From the NCBI RefSeq assembly GCF_009914755.1, contig NC_060933.1: DNA of 64,000 nucleotides. One strand, given 5' to 3'. Below are positions 29,373 through 61,210 of this stretch, piece by piece (position 1 is the stretch's first letter; the number at the start of each line of letters is the position of its first letter). A program made the translations under genes and the position numbers. Under the pieces are notes generated by a model. That model had not been told where the DNA came from, searched no databases, and saw only the letters and a program-made list of their open reading frames with translations. This DNA is from the human T2T-CHM13v2.0 reference genome, Homo sapiens.

Positions 29373-29726
29373 TGTTATGGTTTGGCTGTCTCCCCACTCA
29401 AATCTCATCTTGAATTCTATCTCCCAGAATTCCCACGTGTTGCAGGAGGGACCCAGAGGGAGGTAATTGAATCATGGGGGCCAATCTTTCTCATGCTATT
29501 CTCGTGATAGTGAATAAGTCTCATGAAATCTGATGGGTTTATCAGGGGTTTCCCCTTTTGCTTCTTCCTCTTTTTCTCTTGCTGCTGCCATGTAAGAAGT
29601 GCCTTTTGCCTCCTGCCATGATTCTGAGGCCTCCCCAGCCATGTGGAACTGTACGTCCAATTAAACCTCTTTTTCTTCCCAGTCTTAGGTATGTCTTTAT
29701 CAGCAGTGTGGATACAGACTAATACA
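29373..29726 (+). mobile_element. THE1 (THE1A-like) MaLR 5' LTR
   Basis: tgttatggtttggctgt...cagactaataca, 354 bp, THE1 consensus features. Confidence 0.88.
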
Positions 29727-30786
29727 ATGAATTGCTACCAGTAGAGTGGGGCATTGCTGAGAAGATACCTGAAAATGTGGAAGCGACTTTGGAACTGGGT
29801 AACAGGCAGAGGTTGAAACAGTTTGGAGGGCTCAGAAGACAGGAAAATGTGGAAAAGTTTGAAACCTCCTAGAGACTTGTTAAATGGCTTTGACAAAACT
29901 GCTGATAGTGGTATGAACAATAAAGTCCAGGCTGAAGTGGTCTCAGATGGAGATGAGGAACTTGTTGGGAACTGGAGCAAAGGTGACTCTTGTTATGTTT
30001 TAGCAAAGAGACTGGCGGCATTTTGCCCCTGCCCTAAAGATCTGTGGAACTTTGAACTTGAGAGAGATGATTTAGGGTATCTGGCAGAAGAAATTTCTAA
30101 GCAGAAAAGCATTCAAGAGGTGACTTGGGTACTGTTAAAAAGCATTCCGGGCCAGGCGCGGTGGCTCATGCCTGTAATCCCAGCACTTTGGGAGGCCAAG
30201 GCGGGCGGATCATGAGGTCAGGAGTTCGAGACCAGCCTGGCCAACATAGTGAAACCCCGTCTCTACTAAAAATACAAAAATTAGCCAGGCATGGTGGCAC
30301 ACACCTGTGGTCCCAGCTACTCGGGAGGCTGAGGTAGGAGAATTGCTTGAACCTGGGAGGCAGCGGAGTTTGCAGTGAGCAGAGACTGCGTGCCACTGCA
30401 CTCCAGCCTGGGTGACAGAGTGAGACTCCATCTCAAAAAGAAAAAACACTCCATTTTAAAAAGGAAACAGATCATAAAAGTTAGAAAAATTTGCAGCCTG
30501 ATGATGCAGTAGAAAGAAAAACCCATTTTTTGAGGAGAAATTCAAGACAGCAGCAGAAATTTGCATAAGTAGCAAGGAGCCTAATGTTAATCCCCAAGAC
30601 CACTGGGAAAATGTCTCCAGGCCACGTCAGAGAACTTCACGGCAGCCCCTCCCATAAGAGGCCCAAAGGCCCAGGAGGTAAAGGTGGTTTTGTGGGCTGG
30701 GCCCAGGGTCCCCATGCTGTGTGCAGCCTAGAGACTTGCGTGTCCCAGGCCGCTCCAACCATGGCTGAAAGAGGCCAAAGTACAGT
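29727..30786 (+). mobile_element. THE1 internal region (truncated), with AluS at 30150-30446
   Basis: ORF 29823 matches the MaLR-int peptide (EVVSDGDEELVGNWSKG...[15 protein letters not shown]); Alu TSD aaaaagcattcc / aaaaacactcc. Confidence 0.88.
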
Positions 30787-37772: not shown

Positions 37773-38406
37773 TAGAAACATTCCTTCCATCTTGTTCTTC
37801 TTCCTCAATAGTTATCTCTTCCTATCCCTTTGCATTTTTATATAAATTTTGAATTAAGCTTCTGAATATTCATGAAATATCTTATTGGAATTTTGATTGA
37901 AAATGCATTGAATTGTTAAATCAATTTTGAGAAAACCGACATCTTTACAATATTGAATCTACTATTAAAGAACATGGCATACCATTTATTTGGTCTTTGA
38001 TGCCTCTAAAATTTCTAGAATTTTCTTCATCAAGATCTTGCATACCTTTGCTGGACTTACTTCTAATTCATTTTCAGTAATATTGTAAATAGTATCTTTT
38101 TATAAATTTCACTTTCATTGCTGTTGCCCTACAGACCTGCTATTATCTTTTAACAACTTTAAAATTCACAGACCATAAAATTTACCCAAAATATACAATA
38201 TAATGATTTTAGTATTTTCACAGAGTTATGCAATCATTACCATAACCAATTTTGGAAGTTTTCATCACTCCAAAAAGAAACTTCATATCCATTGTCATTT
38301 CCTCCCCATTTTCTCCCAACAGCCACCCTTTCTTTCCTGACAACTACTAATCTACTTCTATCTCTACAGATTTGGCTATTCTGGACATATCAGTTAAATG
38401 GGATCA

Positions 38407-38726
<320 letters not shown>

Positions 38727-39188
38727 TTATCATTCATACTGATTTGTCAGCCTTCTTTTGGTGAAGTCTCTCGCTTTTTATTTTCAAGAATTTCAAGGGT
38801 CTGAGTAAAACTGGCCCCTAACCCTCAAGAACTAGATGGGGATAGATAAAAAAGTTTTTTATATAGTCAAGCTTTGTGAGTGTTACTGGTCACTGACTCT
38901 CCTCTTATGAGGTCCCTCTCTTACATAAGCAATATGATTAAAACTGATGAAATATTTGTGTACATTATATTCAAAGAGGAGGAGCAGTTGCAGCATATTT
39001 TGTATTTTGTAGGCTTTTATTTTATTTTGTATTTTTTGTTCCTAATGCTTAGTTTTCTCAAGCTTTTTACTAAATGACATTTTGAGTTGATCTGAGAGTT
39101 TAATCTTTATTTCTAGATGTCAGGATTTCAGTGGTTCTTTTAAAAATAATCAGCTCTACTGCTTACTCTGATTAATTATTTTCCCTAG

Positions 39189-39304
39189 GCCTCAGGATCA
39201 TTCAGCTCAGCAAACAAATACCGCTGGAAGCAATGTTACTACATCATCAACTCCTGATAGTAACTCCATATCTGGTTCTGCTACTGGCAACCCTTTTGGT
39301 TTAG
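39189..39304 (+). pseudogene. Duplicated (unprocessed) copy of UBQLN1 exon 3
   Basis: ttattttccctag|G CCT CAG GAT...GGT TTA G|gtgtct; 116 nt encoding [38 protein letters not shown] vs recalled ubiquilin-1 [38 protein letters not shown] (35/38); no other UBQLN1 exons recognised in the window. Confidence 0.88.
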
Positions 39305-39767
39305 GTGTCTTTAGTCATTCCAATAGAAATGCAAAAAAATACCCCTTTCTGTTTCTGGGTAGTTTCAGATAAAATGAGAAAATAAAACTTTATGTCACTT
39401 TAACAACAAAAATCTTAAAAACTAATTTATATAGTCCTACAATTGTAGATATTAAGGAAGTGGTTGGGGATATGGATGTCCTGGGTTACCTTACATTTAA
39501 TAAGTGGTCAATAATTGGCACATTTCTTTTTAATAATGAAAAAGATGCAGTGTATGTATACCTGATCTGACTACCACATAATTTAGCATGAGTAAGATTA
39601 GTTAATTGTTCATCATAAGCCAGCACCTCTGAGTAATAATTTTCTCATTTGTAAAATGAAGGGATGGGACTGCATTAGTTATTTTTGTAACTGTCCTGAA
39701 TACATGGAAGGGCTGGGGCCTGGGAAGCCAGCCCAGCCTAAAACTGCTTTTACTTTTCTTATAGTCG

Positions 39768-40001
39768 TTTTTTTGTTTGTTTTTTGTTTTGTTTTGGTTT
39801 GGTTTGGTTTTTGTTTTTTAGTTTTTTGGTTTTCTTTAAGAGAGGCAGGATCTTGCTCAGTCACTGAGGCCAGAGTGCAGTGGTGCCATGATAGCTCACT
39901 GCAACCTCAAACTCCTGACTTATGGGATCCTGTTGCCTTGGCGTCCCAACCTACAGCATCTATAATGCTGAGGTTACAGATGTGAGCCACTGCGCTTGGC
40001 C
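39768..40001 (-). mobile_element. Partial AluJ
   Basis: T-rich tail then degenerate antisense Alu. Confidence 0.8.
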
Positions 40002-40625
40002 TATATTAGATTTATATATTGAGGTTCTGTGGAAGATTTTGTTGAGGATGAAAGTACTCTGAAGCTTAACAGAAGTTGAAGTAGATAGATAAATGGCTTA
40101 ATGCTTCTTTTGATTCTTGTATGACTAGTATAGCACCCTGAAATGGCATATTTATGCACAGTTTTTACATATCAATGATCATGCCTTTTATCTCTTCCAT
40201 AAGATTAATTCAGTTGTGCCATGCCAAATGTATGTTAGAGGCATTTAAGGTATGGCATGGCTTGACATAGGTTCACATTCACTGTTAGTTTTGTTTTAAA
40301 TGTTTCCTGTCCTTATTTTCCAAAAAGATCTTGTGTTAAGTCTTTTGATTGAGGAAGGTGTGTTTTAGTTGTCAAAAATTATTCATATGAACAATCTAGA
40401 GAAATTAGGATGAAATGATTTAGTGTTCAGACCTATGAAAGGTATTGTTGAGGTAATTCTCTCCTGTCTTCCTTCATGTTATAGGCAGAGATCTTGAATC
40501 AGAAAGAGGCTTTTAGTTATTTTGTCAGAGGCTACGCAACCCCCATATCCCTTCATTTCTAGTCTCATTCCCACATCCTCCTTCTATCTCTGCAGCTTTT
40601 CTCCATCAATTAATTCATCAATTAA

Positions 40626-40710
40626 TCTAACTTCAAAGATCATACTTTTCCTACTCTGTTAAAGGCCCTGATAATCCATTAAACAAATGATTGACAAGAA
40701 GTGAATCAAG
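40626..40710 (+). repeat. Copy of IDNK intron-3 segment 55515-55603
   Basis: 85 bp, 4 substitutions and one 4-nt indel by hand alignment. Confidence 0.95.
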
Positions 40711-41030
40711 TCCAGGCACAGTGGCTCATGCCTGTAATCCCAGTACTTTGGGAGGCCGAGGTGGGCAGATCATTTGAGGTCAGGAGTTTGAGACCAGCCT
40801 GGCCAACATGGTGAAACCCCATCTCTACTGAAAATACAAAAATTAGCCAGGCGTGGTGGCGCATGCCTGTAATCGCAGCTACTCAGGAGGCTGAGGTGGC
40901 AGGATCACTTGAACCTGGGAGGCGGAGGTTGCAGTGAAGAGATTGTGCCACTCACTCTGGCGTGGGTGACAGAGTGAGACCCTGTCTGCCTCAGAAAAAT
41001 AATGATAATAATTTAATAAATAAATAAAAT
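40710..41030 (+). mobile_element. AluS
   Basis: Full dimer with AT-rich tail. Confidence 0.9.
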
Positions 41031-41034
41031 TTAT

Positions 41035-42040
41035 TTTTATACATGTGTAAATCCAGTTGTTGTAGCACCATTTGTTGAAAAGACAGTTCTTTCCTCATTG
41101 AGTTGTCTTGTCACCCTTGTTGAAAATCAATTTCCCATAAACTTATGGATTTATTCCTGGACTCCCAGTTATATTCCATTGGTCTGTACATCTATCCTTA
41201 TGTCAGTACCAAATTGACTTTATGAGTATATAAGTGAAGTAAGTTTTTTAAATGGGAGATGTGAATACTCCAACTTTTCCCTTTTTCAAGATTTTTCTAT
41301 CTCCTTCAAATTTCCATATGAACTTCAGAATCAGCTTCTCAGTTTCTGCAAAGGAGCCAGCTGGGATTTTCATGAGGATTGTGTTGAATCTGTATAATTT
41401 GGAGGGTGTTGCCGTCTCAAAAATATTGTCTTCCAAATCATGAAAACAGGCTGTCTTTCCATTTATTTAGGCCTCCTTTAATTTCTTTCAAAAATGTTTT
41501 GTCGTTTTCAGACTACCATTTTATACTTCTGTTAAATTTCTAATTATTTTGTTCTCTTTGATGCTCTTGTAAATGAAAATTTTTTTAATTTTTTCCTTGC
41601 AGATTGTTTAGAATTACAATTGATTTTATACACTGATCTTGTAACCTGTCACTTTCCTGATCTCACTTATTAACTCTAGTAGGTTTATTGTGGATTCCTT
41701 AGGTTTTCTATAAACAAGATCATGTGATCTGGAAATAGAGATAGTTTTACATATTCTTTTCCAATCTGGATGCCTTTTATTTCTTTTTCTTATCCAATTG
41801 CCCTGGCTAGAACCTCTAGCAGAATGTAGAATAGAAGCGGTGAGAGAAGACATTCTTGCCTTGTTCCTGATCATAGGGAGAAACATTCAGTCTTTTCACC
41901 ATTAAGTATGATGTTACCTGGGGTTTCACAGATACTTTTTATCTAGTTGGGAATTTTGTATTCCTGGTTTGTTGAGTATTTTGATCACAAAGGGAAGTTG
42001 AATTCTGTGAAGTGCTTTTGTTTTACATCTATTGAGATAA
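41035..42040 (-). mobile_element. L1M ORF2 fragment
   Basis: ORFs 41248-41436 and 41626-41886 are degenerate L1 ORF2 (EKLILKFIWK, LLELISE). Confidence 0.85.
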
Positions 42041-42814
42041 CAGATACCATTTTGCCTTTCTGCAAACTTTGTTCTGGATCTTTAGAGTGGCCACTTTTAA
42101 TTATGAAGATGTGAAGCAAGTATACAGCCATTACTTCCAGAAGAAAGTGTAACAAGCTACTTGGCTAAGACCTGGGATTTGACTTTTAAGCTCTTTCATG
42201 CATCTATTTGAACTCTCAGAATTAAACTGGGATCAAGGACTCTCCTGGAAGGGAAAGGGGGAAGATCCAAACTCTTCTCAATTAGACATATCAGAGCTGT
42301 GAGGCTCCTGGTATGTGAATATCTGTCCCAACCCAGCCATCTTTGTGGATGATTTGCCTCCCAGGGAAGTGCCTGTGCGCATTAAGGTGCTCGTCACTGA
42401 GCTCTGTTTAACCGCTGTGGAAATGGTCAGCTTCATACAGGAGCACTGCCATTTCTGTTTGAGACTTACAGTACATGCTGTCCAGAATCTGGGGGTGATC
42501 TGGACTTGAGTGACTATAGAAACGCATGCAAGAAGCTGTGCCTCGCTAGGGACTCGGGGTTTCCAGAGTACCATGTGCCTCAGTACAACAGTTCTTGCAG
42601 TAGACAGGACCTAAAACCAGACCAATATTCAGCATCTGGGTTGCCCCATAGTAACAGCTGGGAAGCACCGAGACAACCAGGACCAGCAGGTGGCACTCTT
42701 TGGAAAGCAAAAAAAAAAACGTGGAATTCAGCTCTTAGGGGCACCTTTGAAGTTCCGCTGTCCTGGAAGCAGGCACAGAGTTTCACTGACACTGGCATGC
42801 TGGGTATCTTTCAT

Positions 42815-55108: not shown

Positions 55109-58100
55109 TTATCATAGCCCTTCTTAGTATATCTCCCACAGCCCTCATCACTGCCCTGCAGGTGACTTAATAGATTACTCATTTGCCTCTTCTCTTTGAG
55201 GACAGGAACCACACCATTCATATTTATCCCCAGTGCTCACTCAGTATGGTGCTTTGCAGCACATTTAATGTTTGTGGAATTAAGGCCCAGTGCCTACCAA
55301 ATTCATGAATTTAAACTCTTTCAAAAATTCAGAGTTGGAAATAAGTACTGTTTATTTCAACTGTTAAATCAACCAAAAAATAGTTTATTCCTTTTCTTAT
55401 TTAAATCCCAGAGCAGCTCAATGAATTATATACGATCCCCACTTTACAAATGAACAAAGAGAGGTGCAGAGAAATTAAGTAACTTGAGCAAAGCCACACA
55501 GCAAAGGGAGTCTTTCTAACTTCAAAGATCATACTTCTCCTACTGTGTTAAAGGCCCTGATCATCCAACCATTAAACAAATGATTCACAAGAAGTGAATC
55601 AAGGTTTGTTAAATTGAGAGAAAAGGGTTAGACAGAGGGTGAGAATGACAGCAGGAATGAGAGGGGCAGTTCCCCACAAGCACATCCATGGTAGGGGTTA
55701 GGCCTTAAAGATGTCTGAGGCACTGACTTAAAGGGTGGTCATGACGGCACTGACATGGTAGCCTGGCTTAAAGCAGGTCAGGCACTAGAACTTGAATTTC
55801 TACACTGGCGCTGCCTTGGAAAAAACCTTTCTCCTTGTGGCTTTATGGGAATCTCCAAAGAAAATTCATAATCATTTAATTATGATTCACTATTTGGAAA
55901 TTTCAGGAATAATGTTCAAAGTGCTGCTCTTTTATTTCCAACCCTCTCTATTGTTTTTATGACTGATGGACACAGTCCTTACTGGTGCATGGTCATTAAT
56001 CTGGTCTGCCATAAATTCCGATAAGGTGGATGTCTAAAAGCACCTATTTTTGTTTAAATAGTTTTATATTTATGTTTATTATGGCTTTCATAGTTGAGAT
56101 TCTGAAAAACTTTATTATGACTAGATGAAGCAGTGTGCTTTATTATTGACTAAAGCATCCATTAAGGCACTATTAAAACAATGAAAAAACATGTATTCAA
56201 AGTAAAGCTCTATTTCTTTGTACACAAGATAGAGAACTTATTACCCAAATATGTTTTCTGTAATTTTTGTTTGTTTCATTCTTATGAAATATTTCAGGCA
56301 CATAGAAAGTATAATGAATAAGATAGTCAACACTCAGCTTAATGAAAAGTATATTTGTTTCCTAAGCCATAAAATAATACAGAGATTGATCTCCATTTCC
56401 ACAGCACAAGCAAATAGAAATATTTGTGCAGATGGAATGGCGGAATGTACAATCTGAGCAAAATAGCAAAATGCAAGTTTGTGCCTCTGCTAATAAGAAA
56501 GAAATTCTGGTATTTAAACAAATTGTCCTCTCTCTTTGGTTCACCCCAAACTCATTATGAACATTTACTCGTGCCAAAAAGAAATTAATTTTTTTCTGTG
56601 TATTTCATCTCTGAGTCAGTCCTAATTCATAGTTCGAATTGCCCCTTAACTCTAAGTAGATATGTGATCATGTAAATTAGCATTCAGCCCTCAGAACTTT
56701 CCAATCACTTCCTCTTCTAAAGCATTCTTCTTGCTGAATGGAGATTCGCAGCCCACGGCACTAGTCTTAAATAAAGCCTTAAAAGTCCCATCCAGAGACT
56801 TCTACAATGACAAGGGGTGCACCTTGGAAAAGGCTGGTTGACTACCCAGCTGGGACTCCAGGGCTGGCTCTCTGTCTTGCAGGCCCAGCCCCCTTGATAT
56901 TGTCAACACACTGAACATGGATTCATCTGTCATGTGAGACCCCTACCAATCAGGTTTACAAGTTCCTGCATAAACCAAAATGCCAGTTGATCAATGTACC
57001 AAAAGAAATACAACTGTCACGTGGCCTGTAACAATCACATTAGTACCCACATTTTCAGAAACCAACATACAGAGGTTTCTTAGTGAACATGGGAGAGTTA
57101 GGACCAAAGAATCTGGTGGCGCGAGACCATGCATTAGTAGGAAAAGGCTTGCTAATGAGAATACGATGTTCAAAGGCCAATGGCCAAGGCACCATGTCCG
57201 CTGGACAGTGCTTCACATTTCAATCTACAGTGCCCTGCTCTGGCCTTCTTGCCTACCCAGCCTGCCTGGGACAGACATGCTTCCTCTAGGTATGTGAAAA
57301 TATTAAGATGGATCACAGTGATGCCTTGCTAGCCTGGGAGTCATTCTAACTCCTTCGCATGACCTTACACATCGCTGCCCCTTCCTTTTAACTGTTGATC
57401 TTTAAATTTAACCCTTAGAGAACAATCTTATTTCCTTCTTTTCCAAGTCCTTAGGAAAGCACCTCGCTGTGGTCCTCATTTTCTCAAAGATAAATCCTTT
57501 GACTCATAGCTTTGTAGAAGTTGACATAATTTCTATGATTTGAAGGCAGATGCCTCCATTTTCATGTAAAACATACTCTGGGGTTAGAAATCAGTCCCCT
57601 AAATGCTTATTCTATGCGGGCCAGTACATGCCACATTTTTATAGGACTGAATCCCAGAGTGGGAAGTAGAACCTCCTGCTAATGTGGGAGGCTTCAAGGC
57701 CCAGTGCCTTCTTTCATTACAACTGTCTGTTAGAGGAGCTGTTTTAGAAAATATATCCAAGAGGGTTTTTTTATAAAAAGCTGACATATAGCAGTATTAT
57801 CTTTTTCATCTCCATTAGCCTGTGAATGTAGTAGAAAAGCTTGGCTAATTACAAGGGGAATAAGAGAAAGAAAGGAATTTAGAAAGATGAGTTCAAATGG
57901 TACCTTAGGAATTACTCAAACTTAGAATGATCATATCTAGGGTATTGGACCAAAAGCACCTACAACAGTGGCTGGGTCTCCCTACACACACAATCAGCAC
58001 TTATAAATGGATAAAGGAAAGTGGAAATCCAAATTTGTGCTTGAAAGGGCAGCTTCTCCCCAGGGGCAATTTTCCATCAAAAAATACTTCAGAGGTCAGT

Positions 58101-58389
58101 CAATCCAGCTAATTGTCCCTGTAGCCTATAATCCTTGACATCCTTCTTCCCCATTCCCCACCATAAGCCCAGAAAACACTGAATTGCAATGGTAGTTTCA
58201 AGTTGCATAAATGTAGACTGCCCAACTTTTTTTCTCTTCACAGAGTGTCCAGAACATCTAGTTTTTTAGTAGGATGTCCTAGAAAACCTTGCCAATAATA
58301 AGCATTAAATATATACACTCTTCTCCAAGAGCACATAAAGTCTCCTCATATATTCTAACATTAATAACTTTATTTTGTGTTTTATTAAC

Positions 58390-58633
58390 CACAAAAGAAA
58401 GACATTTTCTGACACACACAAAGACAGAAGGGCAGACTGTCAACTTCTCAGTCTAATGGAGAAATTTCAAAAACCTTTCTTGAAAATTTATACAGCAAGC
58501 AGACAAAAGAAATTATGAGTAAGGATACAGAAGATTTGAATAAATGCATTAAGTCTGACATAGGCATTAATGAAAAGTAAATAACCATATTATTTTCAAG
58601 TATATGTGGGACATTTGTAAAAATTGACCATGT
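58390..58633 (+). repeat. Local duplicate of L1 segment 60534-60763
   Basis: Shared sequence cacaaagacagaaggg..gactgtcaacttctcagtctaatgga...gacataggcattaatgaaaa...gtgggacattt.taaaaattgac. Confidence 0.9.
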
Positions 58634-61169
58634 GGTCTGCAAATATGGAGCTGGTAAGCCTCATCATCTTGTTACTGCATTTACAAAAAACCACACTTGT
58701 TTCACTACATACACCTCCCAGACAAGTGCTAACATAAACAGATGTTTCATTTGTTAAGTACATTTCAGCTCTAAGTACATACATGACAGTAACTGTTGTG
58801 ATTTGAGTAATGATTTATGTTAATTATGTAGCTATTGACATTTAGATTATAATTTGTGTAAACTGTGTGACTGTCATCATTTGATCTGTACATTTTGTGA
58901 TTTTTGTAGCTATTACATTTGAACTCCTAAGTGATCTCTGGTTAAATAGTGTGTGCATGGAAGTAAAGTCTTAAGAGTTCTATGATTAATAAACTTACGG
59001 GACCCTCAATCCTACATTAGCACGCAGTGCTTTAAAAATAATCTTGTATTTGATATGAAGAAAAAGAAATATTATTTCTAATTCTCCTCTTCCTTCTATG
59101 GAGGGTGGATCCAGGTAACTAGAGGGTTTTTGACTTGCTGAGCACAAAGTGATAGCCTTGGTAGAATGACCTTGCACTTACTGAAGATAAATTACTGTGA
59201 ATAAGAAATGGCCTGAGCCCAGGGGAGATACCCAGGAGCTAAAGGTGGTTACCCAGAGCTGGAGAGCTTAAAAGGCTCCTCATGGAAAAGATCAAAGGAA
59301 AATAAAAATGGCCAAAGTCCAAAGCAAAACGAGAACATCTCATGTGCCAAAATCAAAGTGTGGCAAGGCTGAACTAAACCAGAATAACCCACTCCCCCAC
59401 ATTTTTTGACTGTATAAAAGCCAGGAGAGCAGGAGGCTGAGGTTTTGATGAGCCTATAGAGATGGGAGATAAGATTGTAAGCCTGTATGAAGCATGGAGC
59501 TGGACCTGAGTATCTTACATAAAGTCTTGTTGTTGTTGTTAGCATTGATGTCAAGTTGTAGAATATAAAGTCCTCATATAAGGGCTGTCTTTGAATGAGG
59601 ACTAAAAATATTGCCACCCACTGAACTCAAAAGGAGCAAAAAATCTAGCTGCCTCCCTGGGCCACAGGTGGGAAAAAACAATCATCCTTGAGAAACCTGA
59701 GCTCCGGCTACACCCAAATTCACACTATATGACAAAGAGGCACCAAGCTTATAAACTGACATAAAACTGTTCTAGAATTGGTGAAACTGCCCGTGAAAGT
59801 GTTTCCAAAACTTAGGACTCCCACAAAGGAAAAAAAAAAATCCTTTGCTGAAGATGAAACTACAATCAGAAACTATAAACTATATGGGAAAATGGACCAC
59901 TATGAGAGAGAATCAGCAAAAACACTAATGGTAAGATGTTGTTCTCCAAGAACTAGACATAATAGAATCAAATGGAAGACAAGAATAGGAAAATTTGAAA
60001 AAGAATGAAATAAAAATATTAGAAATAAAACAATCAATAGATGGATTAAACAATAAACTAGTACAGCTGAAGAGAGAACTAGTGAATTAGAAGAAAAGCA
60101 GATTGGAGGATATTACCCAGGATGAAGAAGAGAGCTAAACAGAAAATATTCAAGAAAAATGAATAGATGTGTATGATAAAATGTCAAACTTCCTGGATAG
60201 CTACAAGGAACCCAAGTAAATAGAATAGGAGAAAGGCTATATTCAAATAGGTAGTAACAACTTTTCCAGGGTATGAGTACTCACACTGAATACGCAAAAT
60301 AAGTCCTGAGCAGGGCAAGAATAAAACTGCAAAGCCGCTCAAAGACAAAGAGGCTTTTCCCTACATAAAGCTACCAGAGATAAGATATATTTTCTAAAGG
60401 ATTGACTAATACACTAAAAGAGACTTCTCAACAATAAAGGCCCAAACAAAATGAAATAATTATTCAAACTATTGAAAAATAATGGTCAACCAAGAATTCT
60501 TCACCAACTAAAAAAATCTTATTCACAAGTAAGCACAAAATAAAGACATTTTCTAACATACACAAAGACAGAAGGGTGGACTGTCAACTTCTCAGTCTAA
60601 TGGAATTTCAAATAACTTGAAAAATTGATACATAAAGTAGACAAAAGAAATTATTAGTAAGAATATAGAAGATTTGAATAAATGCATCAAGCCTGACATA
60701 GGCATTAATGAAAAATAATATTCTTTTTAAGTACATGTGGGACATTTATAAAAATTGACATGTACTAGACCACAAAGAGTATTGCCACAAATTTCAAAGA
60801 ATCAGTATCATACCACTCACATTTTTTACTATAATGAACTGTAAATCAATAATAAAAATGCACACACATCACCAAAATGGTTGGGAACTCTAAAAATAAA
60901 TAAGCAAATTTTTTAAAAAATTAACATTCATATAAATAATTTATGTTAAAAGTCACAATGGAAATTACAGAATATTAAGTAATATACAACAAAAGTACTA
61001 TCAATTAAAATTTGTGGGATGCAGTTACAACATTACTTAGAGGGAAACTAGCCTCTAAATACATTTTTGGGAAATAACAAGAATGAAAAGTAACGAGCTA
61101 GTTACTCAGTTCAAGTAGAAAAAAATAAATGCAGGAAATAACAGAAATGAATGCTAGTGAAAACAAACT

Positions 61170-61210
61170 GGGCACATGTTCTCAGGATCTCCTGAGGGCT
61201 GTGTCATGGG
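61170..61210 (+). mobile_element. 41-nt MER4-group LTR fragment with TSD-like flanks
   Basis: gggcacatgttctcaggatctcctgagggctgtgtcatggg flanked by aaaacaaact / aaaataaact. Confidence 0.7.

What the first reader, a model, noticed from the sequence alone, without database searches (positions are those of the whole stretch)
40604..40710. 85-bp copy of IDNK intron 3 at the right end of the UBQLN1-derived block: a possible multi-template rearrangement scar
Seen: 40626-40710 matches 55515-55603 (4 substitutions, one 4-nt indel), 15 kb away. The 55515 copy is continuous with a MIR remnant and so is the donor; the 40626 copy starts mid-MIR. Its left junction has a 12-bp tandem duplication (catcaattaatt/catcaattaat), and its right end runs straight into an Alu 5' end. 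Inference: UBQLN1 piece plus IDNK piece, bracketed by two same-orientation Alus (38422, 40710) without visible TSDs, looks like one fixed template-switching event (FoSTeS/MMBIR or polymerase-theta type). It may have used neighbouring genes in spatial proximity as templates and replaced part of the host L1.
Basis: partly seen in the sequence, partly recalled or inferred. Interest (0 to 1): 0.72.

Follow-up and report, generated by a model that had tools for sequence, protein, structure and literature searches.

The report
Ancient two-gene DNA repair patch
A 2-kb stretch just upstream of the human IDNK gene holds copied pieces of two neighbouring genes, UBQLN1 and IDNK, and is likely an old DNA-break repair patch from a primate ancestor, a known and ordinary kind of scar with no sign of function.

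Summary
The 85-bp match is real: 40626-40710 = 55515-55603, 4 substitutions and one 4-nt indel, with no other copy found genome-wide.

(1) Detectable UBQLN1 homology ends at 40037, not at the IDNK piece; 566 bp between them match nothing else in the genome. The UBQLN1 intron has a truncated Alu without TSD exactly there, so the donor likely lost this DNA later. (2) The left Alu is not a bystander: the copy starts at the TSD of a UBQLN1 Alu, so this is an Alu/Alu or A-tail junction. (3) The right end sits at the first base of an Alu and may not be a primary template switch.

About 0.93 kb of host L1 is missing. Divergences (8.9%, 4.7%; p=0.23) fit one age, likely early simian. Best reading: a two-donor repair-mediated duplication (Pace et al. 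2009), with unusually distant donors (15 and 65 kb). Single-event status and mechanism need primate orthologues, which I could not search. Known kind, low interest.

The parts
38160..38422 (-). Host old L1 remnant, left piece (L1 identity and orientation recalled)
   Evidence: 40 of 40 scored candidates match, 70-78% apart from itself; collinear with the right piece in L048 and L037
38423..38713 (+). Alu A with A-tail: start lies in host L1, tail joined to UBQLN1-derived sequence; likely host/donor junction
   Evidence: No TSD; 14.8% non-CpG difference from the donor Alu and 0 shared rare variants over 287 columns, 8.9% in the last 100 columns
38714..40037 (+). Inverted copy of UBQLN1 intron-exon-intron (donor at window places 105892 to 104007, minus strand); begins with the TSD of the donor's Alu; has empty sites for two Alus the donor now carries
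   Evidence: 109 substitutions in 1225 aligned sites (8.9%)
39189..39304 (+). Copy of a 116-bp UBQLN1 coding exon (exon 3 by recall); acceptor intact, frame open, splice donor weakened by a 4-nt deletion
   Evidence: 5 substitutions, 3 amino-acid changes in 38 codons; no exon in the hub's annotation
40038..40603 (+). 566-bp orphan, likely ancestral UBQLN1 intron later deleted from the donor
   Evidence: No other match genome-wide or by nhmmer in 309 kb; the donor has a 5'-truncated Alu without TSD where homology ends; GC 0.353 vs 0.357 in the block
40604..40626 (+). 11/12-bp tandem duplication at the internal junction; 1 base (T) shared with the IDNK donor
40626..40710 (+). 85-bp copy of IDNK intron 3
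40710..41029 (+). Alu B with tail: 5' end meets the IDNK piece, tail meets host L1
   Evidence: 18 of 22 CpG sites decayed
41027..42045 (-). Host old L1 remnant, right piece; about 0.92-0.93 kb is missing between it and the left piece
55515..55603 (+). Donor of the 85-bp piece, in IDNK intron 3, at the 3' end of a MIR-like remnant (55380 to about 55540)
   Evidence: intron number from the hub's exon table

Best explanation
The stretch 38714-40710 holds 1.3 kb copied from UBQLN1 and 85 bp copied from IDNK, and was likely made in one DNA-break repair event in an early simian ancestor, with the broken end likely copying nearby chromosomal DNA through successive template switches. Inferred steps: (1) a break near Alu A in the old L1 paired with the inverted UBQLN1 Alu 67 kb away, late in the element or through the A-tail; (2) synthesis copied about 1.9 kb of UBQLN1, including the 566 bp since lost from the gene; (3) the end switched to IDNK intron 3 with 1 base of microhomology, leaving an 11/12-bp duplication; (4) it rejoined the host L1. 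The present right end is set by Alu B. It is most likely a later trim (an Alu inserted into the IDNK-derived part, then recombined with a host Alu), less likely a direct return. About 0.93 kb of L1 was lost at the event, at the trim, or both. The patch is likely neutral.
For: Both donors are single-copy, unspliced and within 70 kb. The copy begins exactly at the donor Alu's TSD behind an A-tail, while Alu A's body is unrelated to that Alu. The junction duplication is rare by chance (0.07%). The host L1 halves are collinear with 0.92-0.93 kb missing in 2 of 2 copies that show both flanks close together, and six more copies join the missing piece to the right flank. Divergences are compatible: 109/1225 vs 4/85, Fisher p=0.23. 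The insert has no poly(A) end and no flanking TSD. Two-donor repair duplications inside old transposons are documented: 20 of 1,136 (PMC2671141). For the trim: an endonuclease-like site lies 14 bp upstream of Alu B inside the IDNK piece, the commonest TSD length among 34 local Alus, with a score reached by 10.7% of random positions; Alu-Alu deletions are mostly under 1 kb with a hotspot at Alu positions 24-45 (PMC2041999).
Against: No orthologue was examined, so one event is inferred, not shown. The 566-bp orphan has no proven donor. 85 bp gives a wide interval (1.3-11.6%), so equal age is weakly tested. Alu A shares no rare variant with the donor Alu, so its hybrid nature rests on the TSD position alone. 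Alu B is not demonstrably hybrid: half-to-half asymmetry p=0.067, and its diagnostic pattern is mixed within the 3' half. The endonuclease-like site is only modestly unusual. In Pace et al. every two-donor case had one donor within 5 kb, and breakpoint deletions were 1-15 nt; here donors are 15 and 65 kb away.
Confidence: 0.55

Rival explanations
1. Alu B's own retrotransposition made the structure: priming at the L1 site under its tail, copying to its 5' end, then jumping onto IDNK and UBQLN1 templates (DNA or nascent pre-mRNA), and closing by annealing of the copied UBQLN1 Alu tail to Alu A, which deleted 0.93 kb.
For: Explains in one step why the IDNK piece ends at Alu B's first base. One G is shared there, and the donor continues with a second G. 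Both pieces are in gene-sense orientation, the same as Alu B (1 in 4 by chance). Insertions carrying templated genomic DNA are reported: 22 in PMC-listed bioRxiv 10.1101/2024.08.27.596794 and three in PMC11702581.
Against: Those templates were typically under 250 bp and within 15 bp of the site. Alu B looks as old as the Alus that precede the copy: 18/22 CpG decayed vs 30/39, against 28/50 for the three later donor Alus (p=0.06). Free RNA templates would not be expected to come from the two neighbouring genes.
Confidence: 0.22
2. Two or more separate events at different times: a UBQLN1 capture at Alu A and an independent small IDNK capture beside it.
For: The point estimates differ (8.9% vs 4.7%). 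A second local two-copy duplication exists nearby (58386-58633 / 60530-60763), so such events recur at this locus.
Against: The difference is not significant (p=0.23). Two rare long-range captures would have to land side by side with no host L1 left between them.
Confidence: 0.13
3. Three templates: the 566-bp orphan came from a third donor that has since been deleted or that the search missed.
For: No part of the orphan matches the present UBQLN1 intron.
Against: Homology stops exactly at the tail of a donor Alu that lacks about 30 5' bases and any TSD, and the copy keeps the pre-insertion site. A surviving donor at about 90% identity should have been found.
Confidence: 0.08
4. The 85 bp is a multi-copy repeat, a chance match or an assembly artefact.
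For: The donor adjoins a MIR-like repeat; the genome search gives lower-bound counts.
Against: E 2e-28; 2 copies only, while the adjacent repeat part hits 23 other loci; the copies differ by 5-9%, which an assembly duplication would not.
Confidence: 0.02

Closest known systems
Repair-mediated duplications (RD), two-donor chimeric type; Pace, Sen, Batzer, Feschotte 2009, PMC2671141 (read parts 1-3 of 8 and all 107 chr9 places of Table S1)
   Same: Single-donor genomic DNA inserted in an old transposon; no poly(A) or TSD; microhomology, filler and target deletion; two donors; intron-exon-intron copies reported; divergence like their all-primate class.
   Different: Donors 15 and 65 kb away (their proximal class under 5 kb; each of their 20 chimeras has one donor within 5 kb); 2 kb long (proximal maximum 619 bp); 0.93-kb deletion (theirs 1-15 nt); both ends at Alu termini. 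No Table S1 chr9 row lies between 84.14 and 87.17 Mb of hg18, where I recall the locus lies.
Alu/Alu-mediated rearrangement; Song et al. 2018, PMC6071635 (4 passages read)
   Same: Left junction joins a host Alu to a donor Alu in register; template switching at Alus is the proposed mechanism.
   Different: The crossover cannot be placed; it may be only the A-tail. This is a fixed insertion, not a disease CNV.
Alu recombination-mediated deletion; Han et al. 2007, PMC2041999 (12 passages read)
   Same: An Alu without TSD between flanks that do not belong together; deletion of about 1 kb.
   Different: Neither parent Alu survives, so chimerism of Alu B is not shown.
Class 2 templated sequence insertion polymorphisms; Onozawa and Aplan 2016, PMC5110952 (abstract and outline read)
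   Same: A DNA patch at a break, without TSD or poly(A).
   Different: Those are polymorphic and from distant regions; this one is old and from neighbouring genes.
L1-mediated insertions with templated DNA or RNA chimeras: bioRxiv 10.1101/2024.08.27.596794, PMC11702581, PMC13174262 (passages read)
   Same: Extra sequence at the 5' end of a retroelement, in the same orientation.
   Different: Templates there are short and adjacent to the site, or are small RNAs and spliced mRNAs, usually with TSDs.

Membership tests
Repair-mediated duplication (Pace 2009) | Insertion of 50 bp or more interrupting an old transposon | tested here: met
Repair-mediated duplication (Pace 2009) | Each inserted piece has one other copy in the genome | tested here: met
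   the 566-bp orphan has none
Repair-mediated duplication (Pace 2009) | No poly(A) end or TSD for the insert; microhomology, filler or deletion at junctions | tested here: met
   The flanking A-tails belong to Alus.
Repair-mediated duplication, proximal class (Pace 2009) | Donor within 5 kb of the acceptor | tested here: not met
   15 kb and 65 kb; it falls in their distant group, which they did not confidently call RD
Repair-mediated duplication (Pace 2009) | Empty orthologous site in outgroups | not testable with these tools
   No other eukaryote genome is held (no relatives)
Alu/Alu-mediated rearrangement (left junction) | Both breakpoints in Alus at matching register | tested here: met
   Copy starts at the donor Alu's TSD behind an A-tail
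Alu/Alu-mediated rearrangement (left junction) | Chimeric Alu with a locatable crossover | tested here: inconclusive
   0 shared rare variants; donor Alu ties for nearest of 63 over the last 100 columns only
Alu recombination-mediated deletion (right end) | Chimeric Alu with unmatched flanks | tested here: inconclusive
   Flanks unmatched; mosaicism p=0.067; endonuclease-like site in the top 10.7%
Retrocopy / L1 transduction | Spliced or poly(A)-ended insert with TSDs | tested here: not met
   Introns retained, no TSD
FoSTeS/MMBIR versus polymerase-theta end joining | Pathway-specific genetic dependence | not testable with these tools
   Junction features overlap between pathways and are old (own knowledge)

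The most novel reading that the evidence does not exclude
A fixed germline three-part retrotransposition chimera: the reverse transcriptase copying Alu B ran off its 5' end onto nascent pre-mRNAs of the two neighbouring genes (IDNK, then UBQLN1) and the cDNA closed by pairing a copied Alu tail with Alu A. The patch would also be the only human record of 566 bp of ancestral UBQLN1 intron.
Probability: 0.1. Interest if true: 0.55.

Novelty: new member of a known kind. Interest (0 to 1): 0.22.

Why it matters
It adds one old example of long-range, two-donor templated insertion fixed in the primate germline, of the kind seen in disease CNVs and tumours. It also shows that later Alu events can erase primary junctions and donor sequence, so such scars are easy to misread. 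The copy likely preserves the earlier state of a UBQLN1 intron (three empty Alu sites and 566 lost bases). Nothing points to function: no annotated exon or element overlaps it, and the splice donor is weakened.

Tried and rejected
Multi-copy repeat: rejected. A surviving third donor for 40038-40603: none in three genome searches, in BLAST against 214 kb around the locus (output partly cut) or in nhmmer on 309 kb. Alu A as a full copy of the donor Alu: rejected, 14.8% different, rank 49 of 63. Alus A and B as halves of one element: rejected, flanks differ and 0.93 kb of L1 is missing. A TSD-like match between the IDNK end and the L1 right of Alu B scored 7, chance level. In one search Alu B was missed by the length filter, so the rows labelled B there repeat Alu A and were ignored; B was added. 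Of 14 L1 loci only L048 showed both flanks; L037 was the second. Rfam on 38000-41500: 16 matches, none at gathering score, mostly Alu-derived. A structure search with the next UBQLN1 exon gave nothing significant. The 29373-30778 match 40 kb upstream is a high-copy element, not a local duplication. Literature: UBQLN1+IDNK+duplication gave 2 papers and UBQLN1+intron+Alu+primate+deletion gave 3; I saw listings only and none appears to describe this insert. Subscription journals, database tracks and bioRxiv supplements were not visible, so absence from print is not established.

Full report
Observation. Window 40626-40710 matches 55515-55603 at 91.0% over 89 columns, E 2e-28, with 4 substitutions and a 4-nt gap. 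A genome search with 40500-40712 returned 2 matches from 2 candidates: itself and 55515. A search with the donor region returned 25 matches: itself, the copy, and 23 loci that cover only the upstream part, about 55386-55517. So the copied part is two-copy and the part before it is a dispersed repeat. A profile built from fetched copies scores 55380-55506 at E 4e-8, and two weak single-query hits run to 55539-55546. The copy lacks the upstream repeat part, so 55515 is the donor. The name MIR is recalled. The tandem duplication at 40604-40626 is real, and such a repeat occurs in 0.07% of 20,000 random windows.

The UBQLN1 block. 38715-40037 matches chr9:95833892-95832007 on the minus strand (window places 105892-104007) in three pieces. 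The two breaks are Alus in the donor, each with a TSD, whose empty sites are in the copy. There are 109 substitutions in 1225 sites, 8.9%. The block holds a 116-bp coding exon with 5 substitutions, an intact acceptor, an open frame and a 4-nt deletion at the splice donor.

The orphan. 40038-40603 has no second match in three genome searches or by nhmmer in 309 kb. So the IDNK piece is not directly attached to detectable UBQLN1 sequence. In the donor, homology ends at the tail of an Alu that lacks about 30 5' bases and has no TSD, and the copy keeps an A-rich pre-insertion site there. I infer that the donor lost the orphan when or after that Alu inserted. This is untested without outgroups.

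Left junction. The donor has an Alu just before the block, with a TSD. The copy begins with that 13-bp TSD directly behind the A-tail of Alu A. Alu A starts in the host L1. Among 64 local Alus it differs from the donor Alu by 14.8% at non-CpG sites (rank 49 of 63), shares no rare variant, and ties for nearest only over the last 100 columns, at 8.9%. The junction is therefore late in the Alu or at the tail. An independent Alu insertion at the same base is possible but needs more steps.

Host deletion. The flanks are collinear pieces of one old L1. L048 has 924-930 bases between them and L037 about the same after one insert; six further copies join the missing piece to the right flank. About 0.93 kb is lost. 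Thirteen of the 14 loci showed only the left flank.

Right junction. The IDNK piece ends at Alu B's first base with one shared G. A random return to that base is unlikely, so I weighed two Alu-based causes. A later insertion plus Alu-Alu deletion predicts a TSD-like stretch before B: an endonuclease-like site lies 14 bp upstream, the commonest length among 34 local TSDs, and 10.7% of 20,000 random positions score as well. Such deletions are mostly under 1 kb and cross over near the Alu 5' end (PMC2041999 passages), which would leave B looking old, as it does (18 of 22 CpG decayed). B's mosaicism is not significant (p=0.067). The alternative, that B's own insertion captured both templates, fits the exact end and the shared sense orientation. 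Against it, reported templated pieces are short and adjacent to the site, and B groups in age with the Alus that precede the copy. Neither is excluded.

Age. 4/85 vs 109/1225 is compatible (p=0.23); the interval for the short piece is 1.3-11.6%. The copy postdates one donor Alu and predates three. In Table S1 of PMC2671141, the 24 chr9 proximal rows present in all primates have a median divergence of 7.8% and the 8 catarrhine rows 5.4%, with 3 of those 8 at 8.5% or more (my tally). An early simian origin, roughly 35-45 million years ago (date from own knowledge), is likely; a catarrhine-stem origin is not excluded.

Mechanism. Shown: two local donors, the junction positions, the L1 loss, empty Alu sites. 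Inferred: one event, the order of switches, DNA rather than RNA templates, the orphan's origin, the cause of the right end. I put a DNA-templated repair capture entering through the Alu pair at 0.55, capture during Alu B's insertion at 0.22, separate events at 0.13, a third donor at 0.08 and artefact at 0.02.

Known kinds. Pace et al. (PMC2671141; parts 1-3 of 8 read) found 1,136 such insertions in interrupted transposons, 824 proximal, 20 with two donors, and two with a whole exon. This locus works like those, but fails their under-5-kb criterion and is longer, with a larger deletion. I read all 107 chr9 places of their Table S1 and searched it for the gene names; none is at this locus, whose hg18 position I recall as about 85.4 Mb. 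Two gene-name literature searches (listings only) showed no description. Other papers seen: PMC6071635, PMC11702581, PMC13174262, PMC2912911 and 10.1101/2024.08.27.596794 as passages; PMC5110952 as abstract and outline.

Verdict. Real, old and probably neutral: a new member of a known kind with somewhat unusual donor distances. Interest 0.22.

Noticed in passing
window 58386-58633 and 60530-60763: A second local two-copy direct duplication in IDNK intron 3: 248 columns, 85%, 2.1 kb apart; 4 other weak genomic hits at 69-80%. The 60530 copy looks like part of a longer old L1 (recalled), so it is the likely donor: a typical proximal repair duplication.
   Followed up: partly
L026 3755-4010 (window places about 103755-104010, UBQLN1 intron): A 5'-truncated Alu with an internal gap, no TSD and a (TA)n run in its tail; likely marks a deletion of 566 bp or more from the UBQLN1 intron.
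   Followed up: partly
window 29373-30778: High-copy LTR-type element (THE1-like by recall) with an Alu inside; 12,704 candidates, best other copy 40 kb upstream at 91%, others 88-91%. Observed only.
   Followed up: partly
L032, window places 155120-155690 and 156958-157560: A direct pair at 80% over 635 columns, 1.8 kb apart, seen once in the 214 kb compared; not checked genome-wide.
   Followed up: no
window 61169-61210 and place 76668-76708: A 42-bp match at 88% (E 1e-5) seen once locally; may be a repeat fragment.
   Followed up: no
window 39790-40003: An old reverse Alu monomer shared by copy and donor; its tail has grown a longer T/G-rich simple repeat in the copy.
   Followed up: no
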